In this document: positions 1-5,516 of the stretch, one piece after another
Layout of the letters: every line of letters starts with the position of its first letter
How positions within the stretch are numbered: position 1 is the first letter of the stretch
DNA from: a virus
Lineage: Duplodnaviria; Heunggongvirae; Uroviricota; Caudoviricetes
IMG/VR virus record: IMGVR_UViG_3300015179_000038
DNA: 6,790 nt
Reading direction: 5' to 3' (one strand)
Translations under genes and position numbers: made by a program
The notes under the pieces: model-generated
The model's input: the letters and a program-made list of their open reading frames with translations, nothing else
Told to the model about the DNA's origin: nothing
The model's database searches: none

Positions 1-502
1 CATAATGTGCCAGGAGAACTTCGCCGCGCTGGCTTGCTCCCATCTGGTTAAGCGCCAGTGGTGCGGCGCTGTCTTCTGTTTTTTTCTTAACAGGAAGCTG
101 AATCACCAGACCATCAGAAAGATTCTGGCGCTCACGGGCCAGATATTCGCGCCAGTTCTGCACCTCCTGACCGTGCATACCCTCAGGATAAAAATTTGCA
201 TCCTGTACGCCTGCCGCCGCCAGCTTCTGACCAATCGCCTTTATCATTACTGGCGCAAGATATCCGGCCCTGAATATGCGCACGGATTTTCTGCCTTCCG
301 GCACAATTTGCAGCTTATCCAGTTCGGATAACTGCTGCTCCCCAAGCCACACAGGAGGCTCATTATCTCCGGCCATACGCGCGTCATGTTCCTGCCATTG
401 TTTTGCGTGTGACCAGGCATCACTACCCGCAAAAATAATGACTTCTGTTTCTTTGTGTTTTATGCCGCGTGACTGCTGTTTTACGTTCGGTGCCAGTTTC
501 AT
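1..502 (-). CDS. Hypothetical protein A, N-terminal 167 codons only (3' end lies beyond window start)
   Basis: ATG at 502-500 preceded by GGGGG Shine-Dalgarno (+ strand CCCCC 509-513), and overlapping the TGA stop of upstream gene B as ATGA. I re-translated the minus strand to position 2 and found no stop (MKLAPNVKQQSRGIKHKETEVIIFAGSDAWSH...GEVLLAHY). Absent from the supplied track because it has no in-window stop. Function not assignable by eye. Confidence 0.6.
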   Translation of the reverse strand, partial: MKLAPNVKQQSRGIKHKETEVIIFAGSDAWSHAKQWQEHDARMAGDNEPPVWLGEQQLSELDKLQIVPEGRKSVRIFRAGYLAPVMIKAIGQKLAAAGVQDANFYPEGMHGQEVQNWREYLARERQNLSDGLVIQLPVKKKTEDSAAPLALNQMGASQRGEVLLAHY

Positions 503-786
503 TTTTTACCCCCTGCGACCAGCATTTCACGAATTTTGCGGATATGACTTGCTGCACGTTTCTGATTTACGGCTTTACGATGGCCCACCAGCGTGAAATC
601 ACGCCGGAACTGATAAACAGGCATCACGCAGTCATATTCGTAGCCATCACGGCGGTAAGTGATGCGCCGTTCTGCCACGCCTTTTATCGTTACCGTGCCG
701 CCATAGTTATCCCGGAAAATATCGCCGGGGCGGATTTCAGGCCGAGCGGGGCCGCTGGCAGTAAAGCCAGAATTTTTCTTTTTCAT
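499..786 (-). CDS. Hypothetical small protein B (95 aa)
   Basis: Track ORF. ATG at 786-784 with GGAG about 10 nt upstream; E. coli-like codon usage (CTG, GGC, CGC); stop overlaps the start of gene A. No recognisable domain. Confidence 0.6.
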   Translation of the reverse strand: MKKKNSGFTASGPARPEIRPGDIFRDNYGGTVTIKGVAERRITYRRDGYEYDCVMPVYQFRRDFTLVGHRKAVNQKRAASHIRKIREMLVAGGKK

Positions 787-792
787 GTTTTT

Positions 793-999
793 TTACTCCA
801 GAGGCAGCTTTTTAGCGGCGAGCTCAATATCAGATGTCAGAGAAACCTGTGTATTTGCCAGGTCTAACAACAAAGAAATAAGAATTTCTTCTCTGCTATC
901 GGATTTATCGGTGCTAAGGCTGTTCATCCACATATTGACGACTTCCCTGATTTTTTTTCGCAGAGTGCAGGGCTTCAAATGCCAGGTCTTCAATATCAT
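793..999 (-). CDS. Hypothetical small protein orf68 (68 aa)
   Basis: Track ORF filling the gap between C and B in the same orientation. Its ATG lies 2 nt after the stop of C, and its last codons (CTG GAG TAA) supply the SD for B. Weak own SD, so it depends on translational coupling. Confidence 0.4.
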   Translation of the reverse strand: MILKTWHLKPCTLRKKIREVVNMWMNSLSTDKSDSREEILISLLLDLANTQVSLTSDIELAAKKLPLE

Positions 1000-1001
1000 G
1001 T

Positions 1002-1214
1002 TTATTTCGCATAATCGCCCCCGCGTAGCTGGTCTGCACTAACACCCGATTTAGTGAGCATTTCAGAAAATCCCGCAAGAGTGCTGATAAATTCGTTTTC
1101 CATTAAACGGCACTGACATTTAACCCGGCCTTTTTCCAGATACACCAGTACGCGCCCCGTATAATCTGACGGCACATTCAGCACTACAGGTAAGTGCGAT
1201 TCATGATTATGCAT
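1002..1214 (-). CDS. Hypothetical small protein C (70 aa), paralog of D
   Basis: Track ORF. ATG 1214-1212 preceded by GGGGGTGAG SD inside the 3' end of D; overlaps the D stop by 8 nt. Gap-free alignment with D from residue 19 gives about 13/40 identities (TG-LV--KGRV-C--L). Confidence 0.6.
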   Translation of the reverse strand: MHNHESHLPVVLNVPSDYTGRVLVYLEKGRVKCQCRLMENEFISTLAGFSEMLTKSGVSADQLRGGDYAK

Positions 1215-1416
1215 GTCTCACCCCCTGAATATTCGCATTAATCATTCCGGCACGTTCTGCGAGTTCCTGTAATGATTCCCTTGTTGCGACAATGGCTTCA
1301 TCTGGCAGGTGGTAATTACACACCACGCGACCTTTATCCACATTGACCAGTAGCTGCCCGGTAAATTTCTCACGAAACTGAACGCGGTTAAGGTCGGTAA
1401 GTGACAGGTTAATCAT
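1207..1416 (-). CDS. Hypothetical small protein D (69 aa), paralog of C
   Basis: Track ORF. ATG 1416-1414 preceded by AGGGGGAA SD; start overlaps the TAA stop of E (ATGATTAA). Shares the TGxxLV..KGRVxC core with C. Confidence 0.65.
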   Translation of the reverse strand: MINLSLTDLNRVQFREKFTGQLLVNVDKGRVVCNYHLPDEAIVATRESLQELAERAGMINANIQGVRHA

Positions 1417-1612
1417 GGTGTTCCCCCTGGCGAATACGGGCAGCGAATACCATCACGCAGCCATCAGGAGATTGCTGACGCGCTTCCTGTTCGCTGGTAG
1501 CCTCAATGGTAATCACGCGCGGTTGTGCCGTGCTCAGGGCGATAAAACGCCAGATGTATTTATTCAGGTTGTACGAGTCCCGCCCTTGCGGGTGTCTGGT
1601 ATAATTTCTCAT
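1409..1612 (-). CDS. Hypothetical small protein E (67 aa), first gene of the minus-strand operon
   Basis: In-frame ATG at 1612-1610 inside the 373-aa track ORF, preceded by GAGGT SD at 5-nt spacing. Translation MRNYTRHPQGRDSYNLNKYIWRFIALSTAQPRVITIEATSEQEARQQSPDGCVMVFAARIRQGEHHD looks protein-like, unlike the Cys/Arg/Ser-rich upstream part of that ORF. Confidence 0.5.
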   Translation of the reverse strand: MRNYTRHPQGRDSYNLNKYIWRFIALSTAQPRVITIEATSEQEARQQSPDGCVMVFAARIRQGEHHD

Positions 1613-1708
1613 AGCTACCTCGATACGCTTTCTATCGTTGGTGGTTAGAAGCCCGGTTAGTGTTAGCGCACTGCCGGGTTTCGTCGTTTCTGCACCTTGC
1701 ATCAGTAA

Positions 1709-1763
1709 GGTGTTGAACACCAATTTAAGCTCTGGTGTTAAACACGTCAAGTGTTGAACACTT
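1709..1763. promoter_or_regulatory. Divergent promoter region with three palindromic operator-like sites GTGTT(G/A)AACAC
   Basis: Sites at 1709-1721 (GGTGTTGAACACC), 1734-1745 (GGTGTTAAACAC) and 1749-1763 (AAGTGTTGAACACTT). Candidate + promoter: -35 TTGAAC 1754-1759, -10 CATACT 1777-1782, leading to the ORF at 1812. Candidate - promoter: -35 TTGACG at 1750..1745, -10 TTAAAT at 1728..1723, leading to gene E. The palindromes overlap both. Confidence 0.5.
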
Positions 1764-1811
1764 ATTTTTTTTCCTGCATACTGCATTTGTTTTTTGTAAG
1801 GGGTACACAAC

Positions 1812-1991
1812 ATGGCAACAAAAGCAGTAAACGCAAAATCACAAACAGTTGCGGCAAGGGTTCCGCATGAAGTTATGAACAATGTTGAGGCGGTAAAAAT
1901 GCCTGGTGAAAGTACAGGGCAGTTTGTAACAGCAGCATTAAAGCGAGAAGTTGAATACCGCCAGCGTCGCAAGGCCAAAGAGCAGGAATAA
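1812..1991 (+). CDS. Small ribbon-helix-helix (Arc/CopG-like) DNA-binding protein candidate, 59 aa
   Basis: Not in the supplied track (too short). ATG 1812 with AAGGGG SD 8 nt upstream; TAA at 1989-1991. MATKAVNAKSQTVAARVPHEVMNNVEAVKMPGESTGQFVTAALKREVEYRQRRKAKEQE fits a beta-strand/helix/G-x-S/helix RHH pattern (compare P22 Arc) by eye. Confidence 0.5.
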   Translation: MATKAVNAKSQTVAARVPHEVMNNVEAVKMPGESTGQFVTAALKREVEYRQRRKAKEQE

Positions 1992-2048
1992 CCATCACCA
2001 GCGCCGTGGTGTAAGGTATTACGGCGCATTGCTATGCAGGACAACACA

Positions 2049-2222
2049 ATGACCGATAAAGAATTGACCAAAACATTATCACCGACACGGAAAAGACGGC
2101 GCAGAAAGATAGAGCATGAATCAGAAAGATTCGCGCCATGTGCTTTTGCCCTTGAGCAATTCCTTAAAGAGTACAGGGAAAAGCGCTCATTGCAGGTATG
2201 GCAACGAACTGAACCAGACTGA
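2049..2222 (+). CDS. Hypothetical small basic protein (57 aa from second ATG; track calls 2034)
   Basis: Track ORF 2034-2222. ATG at 2049 has AGGA about 7 nt upstream; ATG at 2034 has none. Highly basic (RKRRRRK); followed by an intrinsic terminator. Weak support. Confidence 0.3.
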   Translation: MTDKELTKTLSPTRKRRRRKIEHESERFAPCAFALEQFLKEYREKRSLQVWQRTEPD

Positions 2223-2288
2223 TTGCATTGCCCACCAGCCGCAAATGTGGCATTGTTGGTGATGCTTTTGTTTTCCCTTGTTCCCACT

Positions 2289-2318
2289 GGCGACCCTTTT
2301 GCGGTCGCCTTTGTTTTG
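2289..2318 (+). terminator. Rho-independent terminator (stem GGCGACC/GGTCGCC, loop CTTTTGC, T-tract)
   Basis: Perfect 7-bp GC-rich stem 2289-2295/2303-2309 followed by TTTGTTTTG. Downstream of the + strand small ORFs. Confidence 0.6.
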
Positions 2319-2413
2319 CTTGTTATCCGGCAATAGTGGCGCTTCACCACACGGTTGATATAATTCCCCTGCACTGATCCATTTTTTTCGCAGCAGGTTA
2401 ATTGTTCAGAAAG

Positions 2414-2441
2414 GCGGTTCCTTATCGGGGCCGCTTTTTTT
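2414..2441 (+). terminator. Rho-independent terminator (8-bp stem with 2 G-U pairs, then TTTTTTT)
   Basis: GCGGTTCC 2414-2421, loop TTATC, GGGGCCGC 2427-2434, T7 run 2435-2441. No T-run on the opposite strand. Confidence 0.6.
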
Positions 2442-2582
2442 ATGCCTGAAAATACCCGATAACATGGCTTTTTAGTTTCACCAGGACGAACGAAGCCCCG
2501 CCCCTGTTCGGGCGTATATCCAGTATTCATGGTTAGATCTCTGTGTTAGTGGATGGGTGGCGGCGGTGCGCCGCCAGCCTGA

Positions 2583-2771
2583 TTAGTGAACTGCCTCGCG
2601 GCTGTCCTTCCATGCCAGAACTTCGGATAAAGACCAGCCAACGGAACGACCGCCGAGTTTACGCCGTGATGGGAATTGTCCGGTCTTCTCCAGGCGATAC
2701 CGACATGAGCGGCTCAGGCCTGTAAGTTGCTGACATTCTTTTTCACGTATAAAGCGATCTGTGCTTAACAC
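2583..2771 (-). CDS. alpA: AlpA/Vis-family phage transcriptional regulator / excisionase-like protein (62 aa)
   Basis: Track ORF; GTG start at 2771 with AAAGGGGG SD. FIREKECQQLTGLSRSCRYRLEKTGQFPSRRKLGGRSVGWSLSEVLAWK matches the AlpA (Phage_AlpA, MerR-like HTH) pattern L-G-S-R-STIYR-GxFP-K-G-R-W-E-W. Same strand as and downstream of int, as in CP4-57 and PICI-type elements. Confidence 0.85.
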   Translation of the reverse strand: MLSTDRFIREKECQQLTGLSRSCRYRLEKTGQFPSRRKLGGRSVGWSLSEVLAWKDSREAVH

Positions 2772-2934
2772 AATTCCCCCTTTGTTGTTTCTTAAAGAGT
2801 CATTGGGTGGGTTATTGGGTTGGGTTGTGTCTGATTGTGTCAGGATGATTCAGAGTTGGCAAATGTTGAGTCCGTATGGTTTACAGAAAGAGGAACAATC
2901 AGGATAAAATCATTTAAATTCATATTAATACAAA

Positions 2935-2963
2935 GGCATAAAATCTCGTTTTATGCCTTTTTT
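2935..2963. terminator. Hairpin with flanking T-runs (potentially bidirectional) between int and alpA
   Basis: Perfect 9-bp stem GGCATAAAA/TTTTATGCC with loop TCTCG, followed on + by TTTTTT and on - by TTTGTATT. Plausibly ends the int transcript before the alpA promoter region. Confidence 0.45.
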
Positions 2964-3054
2964 CTCACGCGTTAAAGCGTTATTCGCTAATGTATAAAAA
3001 ACCAGTCATACAAATAAAATCAGTCACTTATAAACCTGTGTACTTTTTCGCCTC

Positions 3055-3104
3055 TTGTTCGTGGTTGTTCCACGTTGTTTCACATTGTTCGCCGTTGTAT
3101 CTGT
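3055..3104. repeat. Five phased 10-bp direct repeats, consensus TTGTTC-NNNN (iteron-like)
   Basis: TTGTTCGTGG, TTGTTCCACG, TTGTTTCACA, TTGTTCGCCG, TTGTATCTGT at exactly 10-bp register, 43 bp 3' of the int stop. Confidence 0.6.
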
Positions 3105-3146
3105 GTGCTTATCCAGTATGCGCATACTGAAAAAACACGAAAAAAA

Positions 3147-4394
3147 TTATTTTCTTCTGGCTGCTGGTAGTGCGGTTACGTTTTCATGTGCTCCCGCCAG
3201 TATCCCTAACCGCTCCGTCCACATATCCAGCGCATTGCGTTTCGCATCCAGATAACGGGAGTGATTATAGACTCGTTGCATCCCTGGCATCTGGTGTCCT
3301 GTAAGCTGCTCCACGACATGCGGATCAACGCCTAAATCGTTCAGCATGGTTGTAAAGGTGCGCCGGATGTCATGCAGTGACCAGTGGGGGTGATTAAGCC
3401 TCCTGTGCGCTAATCTTCCATACTGCGATACGCTGGCCTCCTGTTTCACTTCCCCCAGCAATAAGCCCGTGTGCCTGTTCTGCTCCACCAGCTGCGTGAT
3501 GAACGGCAGTATTGCTTCCGGTATAGGCCGGAATATGGCTACCTTCGTTTTGCTGTGCTCCTTCGGAACGGTCCAGAGCATTTCGGTAAAATCCCACTCG
3601 CCGATCTCCGATAACCTAAGTTCGACCGTCCGGCATCCGAACACAATCAGGAGGCGGATTAGCGCGATGTAGTAGGGGGAAAATATTTTTTTGTCCAGTG
3701 CCTGCAATAATTCGCCCAGCTCTTTATTGCTTAAGACTCGTTCGCTTATATCCGGTTTTTTCCCAACGTCCGCTACGTTCAGATCATCGAGAACGTTACT
3801 GATTGCATAGCGCCGCCTCCGGCAGTACTTAAGCGCCTGTTTGCATGTCTGTAGCACGAATCCGGCAGTAACAGGTGTTCGCTTTGCCACCTGGTCAAAG
3901 CAGGCCAGCCAGTGCCGTAGCTCGCATTTATCCAGCGGCATAGCACCAATTTTGGTGATTATGTTTTTATTGATCCGGCTTTTCAGTGATTCGTAATCTG
4001 TGCGCTTTTCCTTTGCGTACGACTCAAGCCAATAGGTGAGCGCATCGCCAACCGTTACAGGCTTTAACGCTTCCTGCATGGTGTAATTCAGTTCATAGCG
4101 TGGATTTTTCCCCTCAGCCAGCCATGCGCGACACTGGGCGGCTTTTTCCCTGGCTGCTTTCAGACTCAGATCGGGATAATTTCCCAGCTTAACGCGTTCA
4201 GGTTGTGTCCCTCTTCCCATTCCGGCCCTGTATGTGAAATACCAGGTTAAAAGGCCGCTGGTTGAATGCCTGACGCTCAGGTTTCCACCGTCATTAAGAA
4301 AGGCTGTTTTTTGGACGGGTGTGCCGTTGATTTTCCTTAGTTGTGTGTCACTCAGTTTGTTAAGTGCTCTGCTCATAATTTTGATTCCGGTCAT
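3147..4394 (-). CDS. int: P4-family tyrosine integrase (site-specific recombinase)
   Basis: Track ORF 3147-4397 (GTG); ATG at 4394 or 4376 (MSRALNKLSD) is more likely. N-terminus LSDTQLRK...FLNDGGNLSV...WYFTYR fits the P4-type arm-binding domain; C-terminus has the box II HDIRRT ... LTGH ... RVYNHSRY tyrosine-recombinase motif with the catalytic Arg region GCRTVELRL. Confidence 0.9.
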   Translation of the reverse strand: MTGIKIMSRALNKLSDTQLRKINGTPVQKTAFLNDGGNLSVRHSTSGLLTWYFTYRAGMGRGTQPERVKLGNYPDLSLKAAREKAAQCRAWLAEGKNPRYELNYTMQEALKPVTVGDALTYWLESYAKEKRTDYESLKSRINKNIITKIGAMPLDKCELRHWLACFDQVAKRTPVTAGFVLQTCKQALKYCRRRRYAISNVLDDLNVADVGKKPDISERVLSNKELGELLQALDKKIFSPYYIALIRLLIVFGCRTVELRLSEIGEWDFTEMLWTVPKEHSKTKVAIFRPIPEAILPFITQLVEQNRHTGLLLGEVKQEASVSQYGRLAHRRLNHPHWSLHDIRRTFTTMLNDLGVDPHVVEQLTGHQMPGMQRVYNHSRYLDAKRNALDMWTERLGILAGAHENVTALPAARRK

Positions 4395-4398
4395 CACA

Positions 4399-4527
4399 AT
4401 TAACTACACCATTAACTACACCGATCGTTGCACAAAGGGCTACAACGTGAAACAAGCTGAAACAAGGAAAATTAAAAATCCGTTGAAAATCAAAAACATA
4501 ACGAACAACCTGAAACATTGTGAAACA
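4399..4527. repeat. Putative att / integrase arm-site region: tandem 12-mer ATTAACTACACC x2 plus phased TGAAACA repeats
   Basis: ATTAACTACACC at 4399-4410 and 4411-4422. TGAAACA at 4448, 4458, 4511 and 4521 (two pairs at 10-bp spacing), with degenerate copies at 4484 and 4502. Lies between the int 5' end and the allE start. Confidence 0.5.
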
Positions 4528-4548
4528 GTAAAAAACACTATTTGATAA

Positions 4549-5334
4549 AAGGGATATTTAAATAACGTCACCGGTTACCGCGATGATTTACTGGCTAACC
4601 GTGCGATTGTTAAACACGGTAATTTCGCACTGTTAACACCAGACGGTCTGGTAAAAAATATTATTCCGGGCTTTGAAAATTGTGACGCGACAATCCTCTC
4701 CACGCCAAAGCTGGGTGCCTCTTTTGTTGATTATCTGGTCACACTGCATCAAAACGGTGGCAACCAACAGGGCTTCGGTGGCGAAGGCATTGAAACGTTC
4801 CTGTATGTGATCTCTGGAAATATCACTGCCAAAGCCGAAGGCAAAACATTTGCCTTAAGCGAAGGTGGCTATCTTTATTGCCCGCCAGGCTCCTTAATGA
4901 CGTTTGTTAACGCCCATGCCGAAGACAGCCAAATCTTTTTATATAAGCGCCGCTATGTTCCAATAGAAGGCCATGCACCGTGGCTGGTTTCTGGCAATGC
5001 CAGCGAACTGGAACGCATTCATTATGAAGGCATGGACGATGTTATTCTGCTGGATTTTCTGCCCAAAGAGTTAGGTTTTGATATGAACATGCATATCCTC
5101 TCTTTTGCACCAGGTGCCAGCCACGGTTATATCGAAACACACGTTCAGGAACACGGTGCCTATATTCTTTCCGGTCAGGGGGTTTATAACCTCGACAATA
5201 ACTGGATCCCGGTGAAAAAAGGCGATTACATCTTTATGGGCGCTTATTCTTTACAGGCTGGTTATGGTGTAGGGCGTGGTGAAGCGTTCAGCTATATTTA
5301 CTCGAAAGATTGTAACCGCGACGTAGAGATTTAA
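4549..5334 (+). CDS. allE: (S)-ureidoglycine aminohydrolase (cupin; YlbA/AllE); frame lacks a canonical start codon here
   Basis: The track ORF starts at GTG 4807, but the frame is open and protein-like from 4549 (KGYLNNVTGYREDLLANRAIVKHGNFALL...), giving 261 codons to TAA 5332-5334, which matches the length I recall for E. coli AllE. Codon 4549-4551 is AAG, preceded by TGA TAA. Confidence 0.75.
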   Translation, partial: KGYLNNVTGYRDDLLANRAIVKHGNFALLTPDGLVKNIIPGFENCDATILSTPKLGASFVDYLVTLHQNGGNQQGFGGEGIETFLYVISGNITAKAEGKTFALSEGGYLYCPPGSLMTFVNAHAEDSQIFLYKRRYVPIEGHAPWLVSGNASELERIHYEGMDDVILLDFLPKELGFDMNMHILSFAPGASHGYIETHVQEHGAYILSGQGVYNLDNNWIPVKKGDYIFMGAYSLQAGYGVGRGEAFSYIYSKDCNRDVEI

Positions 5335-5376
5335 GTCATACCACTCGCCTGATTATTTTTAGCTATGTTGGATTTT

Positions 5377-5403
5377 GCCACGGTTTATACCGTGGCTTTT
5401 TTT
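5377..5403 (+). terminator. Rho-independent terminator of allE
   Basis: Stem GCCACGG/CCGTGGC with loop TTTATA followed by TTTTTTT (5397-5403), 43 nt after the allE stop. Confidence 0.7.
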
Positions 5404-5410
5404 GTAACAT

Positions 5411-5516
5411 TGCCTGATGCGCTTCGCTTATCAGGCCTACATGATCTCTGCAATATATAGAATTTGCGCGATTTTCAGGAAGGATATGGTACTCATGCCG
5501 CATCCGGCATGAGTAC
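5411..5516. repeat. REP-like palindromic units in the allE-glxK convergent intergenic region
   Basis: GCCTGATGCG...CTTATCAGGCCTAC (5412-5440) is the classical REP signature. A second perfect 12-bp-stem hairpin GTACTCATGCCG-CATC-CGGCATGAGTAC (5489-5516) contains a REP-like GCCGCATCCGGC core; a small GCGAT-ATAA-ATCGC hairpin follows at 5528-5541. Confidence 0.6.

What the first reader, a model, noticed from the sequence alone, without database searches (positions are those of the whole stretch)
1..1612. Compact six-gene operon of small unknown proteins as cargo of the element
E, D, C, orf68, B and A are on the same strand with overlapping or near-overlapping stops and starts (1416/1411, 1214/1209, 999/1004, 786/795, 502/501) and SDs embedded in the preceding gene. 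This is a single tightly coupled transcription unit under the operator-controlled promoter. None shows an obvious enzymatic motif and the last gene continues beyond the window. Genes next to int/alpA in satellite-like elements often encode helper-interference or anti-phage functions, so this is a candidate uncharacterised module, but the sequence gives no direct evidence of what it does.
Basis: inference. Interest (0 to 1): 0.55.

Follow-up and report, generated by a model that had tools for sequence, protein, structure and literature searches.

The report
Early operon of a phage satellite
The six co-directional genes are not cargo but the first-expressed operon of a capsid-forming phage satellite (cf-PICI) of E. 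coli: it opens with a homologue of the phage P1 cell-division inhibitor Icd, ends in the satellite's replicase, holds a shuffled set of tiny unknown proteins in between, and its first gene appears to be guarded by an undescribed antisense RNA.

Summary
Six minus-strand ORFs with 4- or 8-nt overlaps or 2- and 6-nt gaps run from 1612 to the window edge. The exception is "orf68", the frameshifted remnant of a 72-aa gene that starts at 1012 (A8 in the window, A7 in 12 related copies).

The unit is the early operon of a cf-PICI-type satellite inserted beside allE. Near-identical elements continue into SSB, ProQ/FinO, capsid, protease, portal, HNH, TerS and TerL.
- E is a true homologue of P1 Icd.
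- B is DUF4222, a Tudor/KOW-like barrel.
- A is the N-terminal domain of the replicase.
- D and C are paralogues of a tiny, almost Escherichia-only family.
- PADLOC finds nothing.

In 89 related loci the frame Icd – … – DUF4222 – replicase is constant. The interior is an array of 1–6 small genes drawn from about five families, and the window's order occurs in 5 of 89.

The plus strand opposite E's leader folds into two covarying hairpins behind an extended −10. This is probably a cis-antisense RNA that covers E's ribosome-binding site.

The functions of D, C and the 72-aa protein remain unknown. This is a new member of a known kind, of moderate interest.

The parts
1..502 (-). Gene A, first 167 codons: N-terminal domain of the satellite replicase (continues beyond the window)
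   Evidence: It matches phrog_864 'DNA primase' (2.2e-26) and phrog_2850 (2.3e-28). In the 99.6%-identical AST20 element the gene is 604 aa with D5_N, DUF5906 and Pox_D5 domains. The same roughly 130-aa N-terminal domain, which has no Pfam match, heads three replicase types: D5-type, AAA_25 RepA and DUF927.
499..786 (-). Gene B, 95 aa, DUF4222 protein
793..1012 (-).
   Evidence: The window has A8 at 951-958 where AST85 has A7. Twelve related copies have A7. The intact protein matches phrog_2196 at 2.4e-5. The SD GGGGG lies 8 nt before the ATG at 1012.
1002..1214 (-). Gene C, 70 aa, phrog_340 family, paralogue of D
   Evidence: phrog_340 matches at 3.7e-20. C is 29% identical to D, E about 1e-7.
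1207..1416 (-). Gene D, 69 aa, phrog_340 family
   Evidence: phrog_340 matches at 5.1e-23. The family has 31 clusters at 90% identity, nearly all Escherichia, and 58 representatives among 1.84 billion proteins. Some homologues are 121-128-aa fusions of two such domains. The AF2 model reaches only pLDDT 63.
1409..1612 (-). Gene E, 67 aa, homologue of the phage P1 cell-division inhibitor Icd; first gene of the operon
   Evidence: NF033153 matches at 9.6e-20. BLASTP against P1 Icd gives 37% identity over 43 aa, E 3e-7. P1 Icd hits the same model.
1613..1716 (-). Leader of the operon mRNA (inferred from the promoter position)
   Evidence: The −10 at 1727-1722 puts the transcription start near 1715. 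The leader fold partly sequesters the SD, with z −2.3.
1597..1694 (+). Predicted cis-antisense RNA: extended −10 TGgTATAAT at 1597-1605, RNA about 1613-1692 with two hairpins, complementary to E's SD and leader
   Evidence: The fold is −35.1 kcal/mol, z −4.84. On 49 distinct sequences, 98.5% of cells pair, 6 pairs show compensatory changes, and 0 of 500 shuffles reach the observed values. 114 G-U cells on this strand become A-C mismatches on the mRNA strand. Model R1 hits Klebsiella, E. ruysiae and Tenebrionibacter loci, always antisense to the Icd-like gene. There is a sub-threshold SymR hit.
1722..1750 (-). Sigma-70-like promoter of the operon (TTGACG, 17 nt, TAAATT)
   Evidence: It is one of only two promoter-like sites in 1-3200.
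1710..1761 (.). Three exact copies of the palindrome GTGTT(G/A)AACAC (1710, 1735, 1751) flanking and filling the promoter: putative operators
   Evidence: These are three exact matches in 52 bp. With one mismatch allowed the window has 5 matches, against 0.23 expected by chance, and 0 of 200 shuffles reach 5. The repeats were also found.
1812..1991 (+). Divergent YlcI/YnfO-family gene (59 aa, ribbon-helix-helix-like sequence): candidate repressor of the operon
   Evidence: NF041551 matches at 2.1e-16. A divergent homologue faces the Icd-like gene in the E. ruysiae, Klebsiella and Tenebrionibacter loci. The repressor role is an inference.

Best explanation
Window 1-1612 (minus strand) is the early operon of a capsid-forming phage-inducible chromosomal island (cf-PICI) inserted beside allE.

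Shown:
- The genes are translationally coupled.
- They sit behind a sigma-70-like promoter embedded in three palindromic operators.
- E is an Icd homologue, B is a DUF4222 barrel protein, and A is the satellite's replicase.
- The frame Icd – small genes – DUF4222 – replicase is conserved across PICI types and genera, while the interior small genes are shuffled.

Inferred mechanism:
1. In the quiescent island the promoter is held off, probably by the divergently encoded YlcI-like ribbon-helix-helix protein.
2. A constitutive antisense RNA covers E's ribosome-binding site.
3. When a helper phage induces the island (AlpA-dependent in the studied relatives), the polycistronic mRNA is made.
4. Translation of E opens the coupled chain. 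E delays host division as P1 Icd does. The small acidic proteins act on host or helper targets that are still unknown. B assists transcription or replication through its Tudor-like domain. The replicase amplifies the excised island before the capsid genes package it.

The layout parallels the P1 immI operon: operator, antisense RNA, icd, then a coupled downstream gene.
For: Element identity:
- AST20 and E203449 carry near-identical DNA at the same allE site. Their gene order is int, alpA, ylcI, Icd-like, small genes, DUF4222, primase, SSB, ProQ/FinO, capsid, protease, portal, connector, HNH, TerS, TerL.
- This is the published cf-PICI layout (10.1101/2022.09.08.507074; PMC10085698).

Gene identities.

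Coupling and absence of internal terminators.

Conserved frame with a variable interior:
- This holds in 89 loci.
- It also holds with RepA-type classical PICIs and a helper-embedded PICI.
- It also holds in Klebsiella, E. ruysiae and Tenebrionibacter.
- It also holds in a packaged 16.5-kb particle genome, vB_KppS-Ant.

Satellite specificity: in 50,697 phage records E is found only in that satellite and D nowhere.

Regulation:
- Promoter and operators.
- Antisense RNA.

Parallel with P1:
- 6 of 89 related loci carry a bona fide C4 RNA with its a1b1 targets directly after the Icd-like gene.

AlpA-dependent induction and replication are published for EcCICFT073 and EcCIEDL933 (PMC6092414).
Against: - The window ends inside A, so the capsid module is inferred from near-identical relatives, not seen.
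- The window is a mosaic: 794-1420 matches other elements, not AST20.
- No function is shown for D, C or the 72-aa gene. Their variability is what one expects of accessory genes, so 'cargo-like' is not excluded for them.
- The antisense RNA has no expression data. Its −10 lies in coding sequence and may be conserved for that reason. Its U-tail is weak in the window variant and is not called by the terminator scan.
- How AlpA would reach this promoter is unknown. alpA is separated from E by a divergent unit and several minus-strand terminator-like sites.
- The repressor role of the YlcI-like protein is untested.
Confidence: 0.8

Rival explanations
1. One reading: the operon, or at least D, C and the 72-aa gene, is accessory cargo. 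It would interfere with the helper phage, derepress a resident helper prophage (as P4 epsilon does from the same position), or counter host defence.
For: - The interior genes are presence/absence-variable, reshuffled and duplicated among otherwise near-identical elements.
- Apart from the near-neutral D/C family (pI about 6-6.8), the array families are small, acidic (pI 4.6-5.1) proteins.
- These genes are absent from bona fide phages.
- They are independent of the replicase type: the same D-C-72aa set occurs with RepA, DUF927 and D5-type replicases.
- In P1 the gene coupled to icd is an antirepressor.
- Some cf-PICIs are reported to carry a P4 epsilon homologue (PMC10085698).
Against: - No PADLOC hit, and no Pfam or annotated PHROG for any cassette family.
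- No antirepressor domain is present.
- Published variable or defence regions of cf-PICIs flank the packaging module (10.1101/2025.02.11.637232).
- EcCIEDL933 does not interfere with its helpers.
- E, B and A are clearly backbone genes.
Confidence: 0.3
2. E together with the antisense RNA is a type I toxin-antitoxin-like addiction module of the SymE/SymR kind. Its purpose would be maintenance of the island rather than control of the operon.
For: - P1 Icd blocks cell division (annotation).
- The antisense RNA starts at the start codon and covers the RBS, as SymR does.
- The Rfam SymR model matches at 32.8 bits in the window and 36.1 bits in Tenebrionibacter.
Against: - Both SymR hits are far below the gathering score of 61.
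- The model built from these RNAs does not find the real SymR of K-12.
- E is not a SymE (AbrB-fold) homologue.
- E is translationally coupled to five downstream genes, which fits an operon gate better than a stand-alone toxin.
Confidence: 0.15
3. The small proteins are replication accessory factors (origin recognition, helicase loading) that work with the replicase.
For: - They lie directly upstream of, and are coupled to, the replicase.
- B abuts the replicase in 84 of 89 loci.
- All three replicase types share the N-terminal domain encoded next to B.
Against: - The interior genes vary freely while the replicase N-terminal domain stays the same.
- The same interior set goes with three different helicase bodies.
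- The Klebsiella elements lack DUF4222 altogether yet are packaged.
- No DNA-binding or loader domain was detected.
Confidence: 0.15

Closest known systems
[quoted passage not shown]
   Same: - The order int-alpA, then regulatory region, small genes and pri/rep is the same.
- Near-identical relatives continue into a full HK97-type capsid and terminase module without tails or lysis genes.
- The first half is shared between PICI and cf-PICI, as reported in PMC10085698.
   Different: - The published descriptions treat the genes between alpA and pri-rep as hypothetical.
- They state that no master repressor is known for Gram-negative PICIs (PMC6092414).
- In the papers read here I found no description of the divergent YlcI-like gene, the Icd homologue as leader gene, the cassette array or the antisense RNA.
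Phage P1 immI operon (c4 RNA - icd - ant)
   Same: - The promoter is operator-controlled.
- Antisense-RNA control acts at the icd ribosome-binding site.
- An Icd homologue is the first translated gene.
- That gene overlaps and is coupled to the next gene.
   Different: - The window has no C4 RNA or a/b target sites; they occur in only 6 of 89 relatives.
- The predicted RNA here is cis-encoded on the opposite strand.
- The downstream genes are small unknowns and a replicase, not Ant.
Satellite phage P4 left operon (kil/eta, CI RNA, epsilon, orf151, alpha)
   Same: - Both are a satellite early operon that starts with small genes under RNA-based immunity and ends in the primase-helicase. This rests on established knowledge of P4, not on a test here.
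- The D5_N/P-loop body of the relatives' replicase is of the P4 alpha kind, judged from the Pfam domains.
   Different: - No sequence match of E or D to P4 was found in the phage collection.
- No epsilon homologue was detected.
- The N-terminal domain of A has no Pfam match.
SymR/SymE of E. coli K-12
   Same: - A roughly 80-nt two-hairpin RNA starts at the start codon of the opposite gene and covers its RBS.
- There are weak Rfam matches.
   Different: - The scores are below the Rfam threshold.
- The model R1 does not find SymR.
- The protein partner is unrelated.
RgdR (DUF4222 regulator of type III secretion in EHEC O157:H7)
   Same: Both have the DUF4222 Pfam domain and are encoded on a mobile element (PMC10877973).
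   Different: - B lacks the RGD tripeptide; its sequence shows RPGD and RRDG instead.
- B sits in a fixed position upstream of a satellite replicase.
- No LEE-related role was tested.

Membership tests
cf-PICI | Tyrosine integrase and AlpA-family regulator at one end | tested here: met
   int lies at 3147-4397 (annotated in relatives). alpA at 2583-2771 matches PF05930 at 2.7e-18.
cf-PICI | Own primase/replicase downstream of the regulator | tested here: met
   The A N-terminus matches primase PHROGs. The full 604-aa D5_N/DUF5906/Pox_D5 protein is present in the 99.6%-identical AST20 copy.
cf-PICI | Own capsid, protease, portal, connector, HNH, TerS and TerL, with no tail or lysis genes | tested here: inconclusive
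   This lies outside the window. It is present in AST20 and E203449, which share the allE insertion site and 99% identity over 1421-5404. However, the window is a mosaic in 794-1420.
cf-PICI | Induction by a helper phage and packaging into small capsids | not testable with these tools
   This is shown only for relatives in the literature. A Klebsiella relative was recovered as a 16.5-kb 'induced prophage' genome.
P1 Icd family | Sequence homology to P1 Icd | tested here: met
   E matches NF033153 at 70.4 bits against a cut-off of 25. BLASTP gives 37% identity over 43 aa, E 3e-7. P1 Icd matches the same model at 52.6 bits.
P1 Icd family | Inhibition of host cell division | not testable with these tools
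   This needs expression of E followed by microscopy.
P1 immI-type operon | C4 antisense RNA with a/b target sites | tested here: not met
   There is no C4 or c4-a1b1 hit in the window at E up to 1. They are present in 6 of 89 related loci.
P1 immI-type operon | icd translationally coupled to the next gene | tested here: met
   E and D overlap by 8 nt. P1 icd and ant1 overlap by 4 nt.
SymR (Rfam RF01809) | Score at or above the Rfam gathering threshold | tested here: not met
   The scores are 32.8 and 36.1 bits against a threshold of 61. The reciprocal model does not find K-12 SymR.
Known anti-phage defence systems (PADLOC-DB 2.0) | Match of any encoded protein to a defence-system model | tested here: not met
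   There are no hits at E up to 0.1 for E, D, C, orf68, B, A, ylcI, orf62 or alpA.
DUF4222 / RgdR | Pfam PF13973 domain | tested here: met
   B scores 89.4 bits against a cut-off of 27.
DUF4222 / RgdR | Conserved RGD tripeptide of RgdR | tested here: not met
   The B sequence has no RGD. The motif is described in PMC10877973.

The most novel reading that the evidence does not exclude
Three parts together form the so-far missing repression/immunity switch of Gram-negative PICIs: the Icd-like leader gene, the conserved cis-antisense RNA over its ribosome-binding site, and the divergent YlcI-like ribbon-helix-helix gene with its palindromic operators. It would be a P1 immI-like gate in which translation of a tiny leader gene licenses the whole replication operon. 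Downstream of that gate lies a combinatorial array of small satellite-specific proteins (several of the families acidic) that act as exchangeable effectors against helper-phage repressors or host functions.
Probability: 0.3. Interest if true: 0.65.

Novelty: new member of a known kind. Interest (0 to 1): 0.4.

Why it matters
PICIs and cf-PICIs are present in about a third of complete E. coli genomes: 1881 of 5426 match this region. They move virulence and defence genes between species.

How Gram-negative PICIs are kept silent and switched on is still open. AlpA is an activator, and no repressor is known (PMC6092414).

Placing this operon correctly removes a false lead, since it is not a defence cargo. 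It also points to concrete, testable control parts:
- the operators;
- a divergent RHH gene;
- an Icd-family leader gene;
- a predicted antisense RNA.

It further defines a small set of shuffled, satellite-only proteins whose targets could explain helper or host specificity.

Tried and rejected
- **PDB sequence searches.** Searches with E, D, B and the 72-aa protein found nothing below E = 0.7.
- **AF2 model of D.** It reached only pLDDT 63, so no fold search was run on it.
- **BFVD fold search with B.** It returned only uncharacterised small phage proteins and DUF1653.
- **afdb50 library.** It was not available.
- **Genome-contig scan with E alone.** It gave only 3 loci. The viral-contig scan with an alignment gave the 80 loci that were used.
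- **SymR homology.** This was rejected. The Rfam hits are sub-threshold, and the covariance model R1 does not find K-12 SymR.
- **Structure on the mRNA strand.** I considered that the hairpins act in the mRNA leader. This was rejected as the main reading because 110 of the paired cells are A-C mismatches on that strand.
- **EcCIMP1 'putative repressor'.** I suspected it might be one of these genes; it is a PerC-family protein elsewhere in that island.
- **'icd' in PMC10111431.** It refers to isocitrate dehydrogenase, not the phage gene.
- **EDL933 prototype.** Fetching 1.615-1.665 Mb of the EDL933 chromosome returned a lambdoid prophage, not the island. Direct comparison with the prototype was therefore not made.
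- **Low-quality read hypothesis.** I considered that the frameshifted 72-aa gene shows a low-quality read. There are no indels against AST20 over 1421-5404, so it may be a real mutation.
Full report
**1. What is in the sequence**

The minus strand of 1-1612 carries six consecutive ORFs:
- E: 1612-1409.
- D: 1416-1207.
- C: 1214-1002.
- 'orf68': 999-793.
- B: 786-499.
- A: from 502 to the window edge.

E/D and D/C overlap by 8 nt. C and orf68 are separated by 2 nt, and orf68 and B by 6 nt. B and A share ATGA. Purine-rich Shine-Dalgarno motifs sit inside the preceding gene. No terminator-like site lies on this strand between 1612 and 499. dN/dS against related alleles is 0.30-0.41 for E, D, C, the 72-aa gene and B, so these are real coding genes.

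One correction is needed. In the 99.7%-identical copy of strain AST85 the fourth gene is 72 aa and starts at the ATG that corresponds to window 1012. That start has a proper SD and overlaps the C stop by 11 nt. The window has A8 where AST85 has A7 at 951-958. Twelve related copies have A7 and only the window has A8. 'orf68' is therefore the frameshifted tail of this gene. The window shows no indels against strain AST20 over 1421-5404, so the frameshift may be a real mutation rather than a sequencing error.

**2. What the element is**

The window is E. coli chromosome. It holds glxK, allE, a tyrosine integrase at 3147-4397 and alpA at 2583-2771. Strains AST20 and E203449 carry 99% identical DNA at the same allE site. 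Their annotation continues past gene A as follows:
- a 604-aa 'DNA primase family protein';
- a small hypothetical protein, SSB, ProQ/FinO and another hypothetical protein;
- major capsid protein, HK97 prohead protease, portal and head-tail connector;
- HNH endonuclease, small terminase and large terminase;
- then allC.

This is the published layout of capsid-forming PICIs (10.1101/2022.09.08.507074; PMC10085698). Parts of the region match 1881 of 5426 complete E. coli genomes.

The window is a mosaic. Segments 1-793 and 1421-3200 are AST20-like. Segment 794-1420, which holds D, C and the 72-aa gene, is replaced in AST20 by unrelated small genes. That segment instead matches a helper-embedded island in AST85 and a RepA-type PICI.

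**3. What the six proteins are**

*E.* It matches NCBIfam NF033153 'Icd-like' at 9.6e-20. It aligns with P1 Icd itself at 37% identity over 43 residues, E 3e-7. P1 Icd matches the same model.

*D and C.* Both match phrog_340, of unknown function. They are paralogues, 29% identical with E about 1e-7. Some homologues are 121-128-aa fusions of two such domains, which suggests that D and C pair (the pairing is an inference). The family is tiny: 31 clusters at 90% identity, nearly all Escherichia, and 58 representatives among 1.84 billion proteins. AlphaFold gave only pLDDT 63, with a helix, a beta-hairpin and a helix.

*The intact 72-aa protein.* It matches phrog_2196, also of unknown function.

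*A.* It matches primase PHROGs. The 167 residues in the window are an N-terminal domain without a Pfam match. In relatives this domain heads three different replicase bodies:
- D5_N/DUF5906/Pox_D5, 604 aa;
- AAA_25 RepA, 471 aa;
- DUF927, 706 aa.

No protein matches any PADLOC defence model.

**4. Is the block conserved?**

I collected 89 loci with an E homologue:
- five annotated E. coli loci;
- three loci from other species;
- 80 IMG/VR contigs.

In each I chained the genes downstream of E.

The frame is constant. E comes first, and DUF4222 is followed directly by the replicase in 84 of 89 loci. The interior is an array of one to six small genes drawn from about five families:
- a helical family of 76-78 aa;
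- the 72-77-aa family;
- the D/C family;
- a 106-aa family;
- a few singletons.

Duplications such as 2-2-2 and 4-4 are frequent. The window's order, D-C-72aa, occurs in 5 of 89 loci.

The same D-C-72aa set is found with RepA, DUF927 and D5-type replicases. The interior proteins are therefore not partners of a particular replicase. Apart from the D/C family itself (pI about 6-6.8), the array families are acidic, with pI 4.6-5.1. B is basic, with pI about 10.

Junctions nearly always overlap by 4, 8 or 11 nt. Many share the motif ATTCAGGGGG-N5-ATG, which may serve both as an SD and as a recombination joint (the second role is an inference).

Other genera show the same logic: alpA, a variable gene, a divergent ylcI-like gene, the Icd-like gene, small genes and the replicase. 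In Klebsiella this layout lacks DUF4222. One Klebsiella element was deposited as the 16.5-kb genome of an 'induced prophage'.

Against 50,697 phage records, E finds only that satellite and D finds nothing. These are satellite genes, not phage genes.

**5. Control region**

The 1613-1811 spacer holds a promoter-like site for the operon: TTGACG at 1750-1745, a 17-nt spacer, and TAAATT at 1727-1722. It also holds three exact copies of the palindrome GTGTT(G/A)AACAC at 1710, 1735 and 1751. With one mismatch allowed the whole window has 5 matches, against 0.23 expected by chance, and no shuffle reached 5.

A YlcI/YnfO-family gene at 1812-1991 is transcribed divergently (NF041551, 2.1e-16). It has a ribbon-helix-helix-like sequence. 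It is the obvious candidate repressor, but this is an inference.

Upstream of the leader hairpins the sequence differs between elements, like an immunity region.

**6. A predicted antisense RNA**

Rfam gave a sub-threshold SymR hit on the plus strand at 1613-1685 (32.8 bits against a gathering score of 61). The evidence from related sequences is as follows.

- *Consensus fold.* On 49 distinct related sequences the plus strand folds into two hairpins at −21.8 kcal/mol, against −9.1 for the mRNA strand.
- *Strand asymmetry.* 114 G-U cells on the plus strand become A-C mismatches on the mRNA strand. Mean single-sequence energy is −37.8 against −24.7 kcal/mol.
- *Covariation.* 98.5% of cells pair and six pairs show compensatory changes. 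No shuffle out of 500 reaches the observed values. Slid controls pair in 28-61% of cells.
- *Window sequence.* It folds at −35.1 kcal/mol with z −4.84. The mRNA leader gives z −2.34.
- *Promoter.* A perfect extended −10, TGgTATAAT at 1597-1605, ends 7 nt before 1613. TGnTAT(A/G)AT is kept in 84 of 86 loci. A TATGCT hexamer sits at the same distance in Klebsiella and Tenebrionibacter, although E's N-terminus differs there. The caveat is that this element lies in coding sequence.
- *Cross-genus test.* A covariance model built from 41 Escherichia-type sequences finds loci that were not used to build it, always antisense to the Icd-like gene: E. ruysiae at 57 bits, Klebsiella at 43 bits (8e-9) and Tenebrionibacter at 38 bits (2e-7). 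It does not find the real SymR of K-12.

The RNA therefore resembles SymR in position and shape, but homology is not shown. It would be fully complementary to E's SD and leader. Its U-tail is weak in the window variant, so the transcript might instead run on towards ylcI. In that case the arrangement would be a face-to-face promoter switch.

Six of the 89 related loci additionally carry a bona fide C4 antisense RNA (72.7 bits against a gathering score of 45) together with its a1b1 targets, directly after the Icd-like gene.

**7. How it most likely works**

P1 immI is annotated as a C1 operator, promoters, c4 RNA with target sites over the icd ribosome-binding site, then icd overlapping ant by 4 nt. 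The present operon has the same logic.

*Shown:* an operator-flanked promoter, an Icd homologue as first gene, and tight coupling down to the replicase.

*Inferred:*
1. Repression by the YlcI-like protein.
2. Occlusion of E's RBS by the antisense RNA in the quiescent state.
3. On helper-phage induction, transcription and translation of E open the coupled chain. AlpA-dependent induction is published for EcCICFT073 and EcCIEDL933 (PMC6092414).
4. E delays division, the small proteins act on host or helper targets, B assists transcription or replication, and the replicase amplifies the island.

How AlpA connects to this promoter is unknown. alpA is separated from E by the divergent ylcI-orf62 unit, a plus-strand terminator at 2289-2309 and several minus-strand terminator-like sites.

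**8. Comparison with what is known, and novelty**

The element is a member of the cf-PICI/PICI kind, and the operon is its regulatory-replication half. Published work says two relevant things about this half:
- It is shared between PICIs and cf-PICIs and 'might be involved in cross-regulation of helper phages' (PMC10085698).
- No master repressor is known for Gram-negative PICIs (PMC6092414).

A 2026 survey merely lists 'Icd-like' and 'YlcI/YnfO' among accessory genes of Enterobacter satellites (PMC13612085).

The finding as written, a defence-like cargo module, is therefore not supported. I did not find the following described in the papers searched:
- the conserved frame with a shuffled small-gene array;
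- the Icd-first, P1 immI-like logic;
- the predicted antisense RNA.

These deserve a test but rest on sequence analysis only.

**Verdict:** a new member of a known kind, interest 0.4. The functions of D, C and the 72-aa protein remain unknown.

Noticed in passing
window 1597-1694 (+): A predicted cis-antisense RNA lies opposite the leader and ribosome-binding site of gene E. It has an extended −10 (TGgTATAAT) and two covarying hairpins. The fold is far better on this strand than on the mRNA strand. The structure is conserved in Klebsiella, E. ruysiae and Tenebrionibacter loci. It is SymR-like in position and shape, but homology is not demonstrated.
   Followed up: yes
window 951-958 and 793-1012 (-): The fourth gene is frameshifted by one extra A in a homopolymer (A8; 12 related copies have A7). 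A second homopolymer after its stop codon (around 794) also varies in length among relatives, with 6, 7 or 8 A.
   Followed up: yes
L025 2931-3135; also L016, L027, L039, L040, L070: Six of 89 related loci carry a bona fide C4 antisense RNA (Rfam RF01695, 72.7 bits) plus its a1b1 target element directly downstream of the Icd-like gene. This is the P1/P4-type RNA immunity module; the window lacks it.
   Followed up: partly
window 1-502 (-) and relatives L001, L002, L011: The roughly 130-aa N-terminal domain of the replicase (MKLAPNVK...VIIFAGSDAW...) has no Pfam match. It is shared by three unrelated helicase bodies: D5-type, AAA_25 RepA and DUF927. Its sequence loosely recalls a degenerate Toprim motif; this is my reading and was not tested.
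   Followed up: partly
window 1993-2530: The 373-aa minus-strand ORF is spurious. PGAP calls this stretch a truncated pseudogene in relatives. Its N-terminus resembles the variable BRO/Ant-like gene that follows alpA in other genera. The plus strand carries orf62 (2034-2222, phrog_21027, 1.5e-15) and a clean terminator at 2289-2309.
   Followed up: partly
window 2761-2771: A one-mismatch copy of the operator palindrome (GTGCTTAACAC) overlaps the GTG start codon of alpA. The same binding protein might also touch alpA. A further one-mismatch copy lies at 4607-4617.
   Followed up: no
L004 5003-9502 (strain AST85): In AST85 a helper-embedded copy of the island has its replicase N-terminus, identical to window gene A, fused in frame to the prophage tail gene J. 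This gives a 1499-aa chimeric ORF that PGAP annotates as gpJ.
   Followed up: no
window 5341-5407 (-) and 5433-5475 (-): Rfam hits above threshold for the enterobacterial sRNAs STnc480 (87.6 bits) and ES036/CssrF (38.1 bits) lie in the allE-glxK spacer. These are chromosomal and unrelated to the island.
   Followed up: no
L006 3075-3143; L008 3264-3329: The Rfam 'int-alpA RNA' motif (RF02996) is present between int and alpA in the E. ruysiae and Tenebrionibacter islands. It was not detected in the window at E up to 1.
   Followed up: no
89 related loci, gene junctions in the small-gene array: Many cassette junctions share the motif ATTCAGGGGG-N5-ATG. This leaves similar C-terminal tails (…QGVRHA, …QGAHHA) on unrelated proteins. 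It is possibly a joint for cassette exchange as well as a Shine-Dalgarno site.
   Followed up: partly
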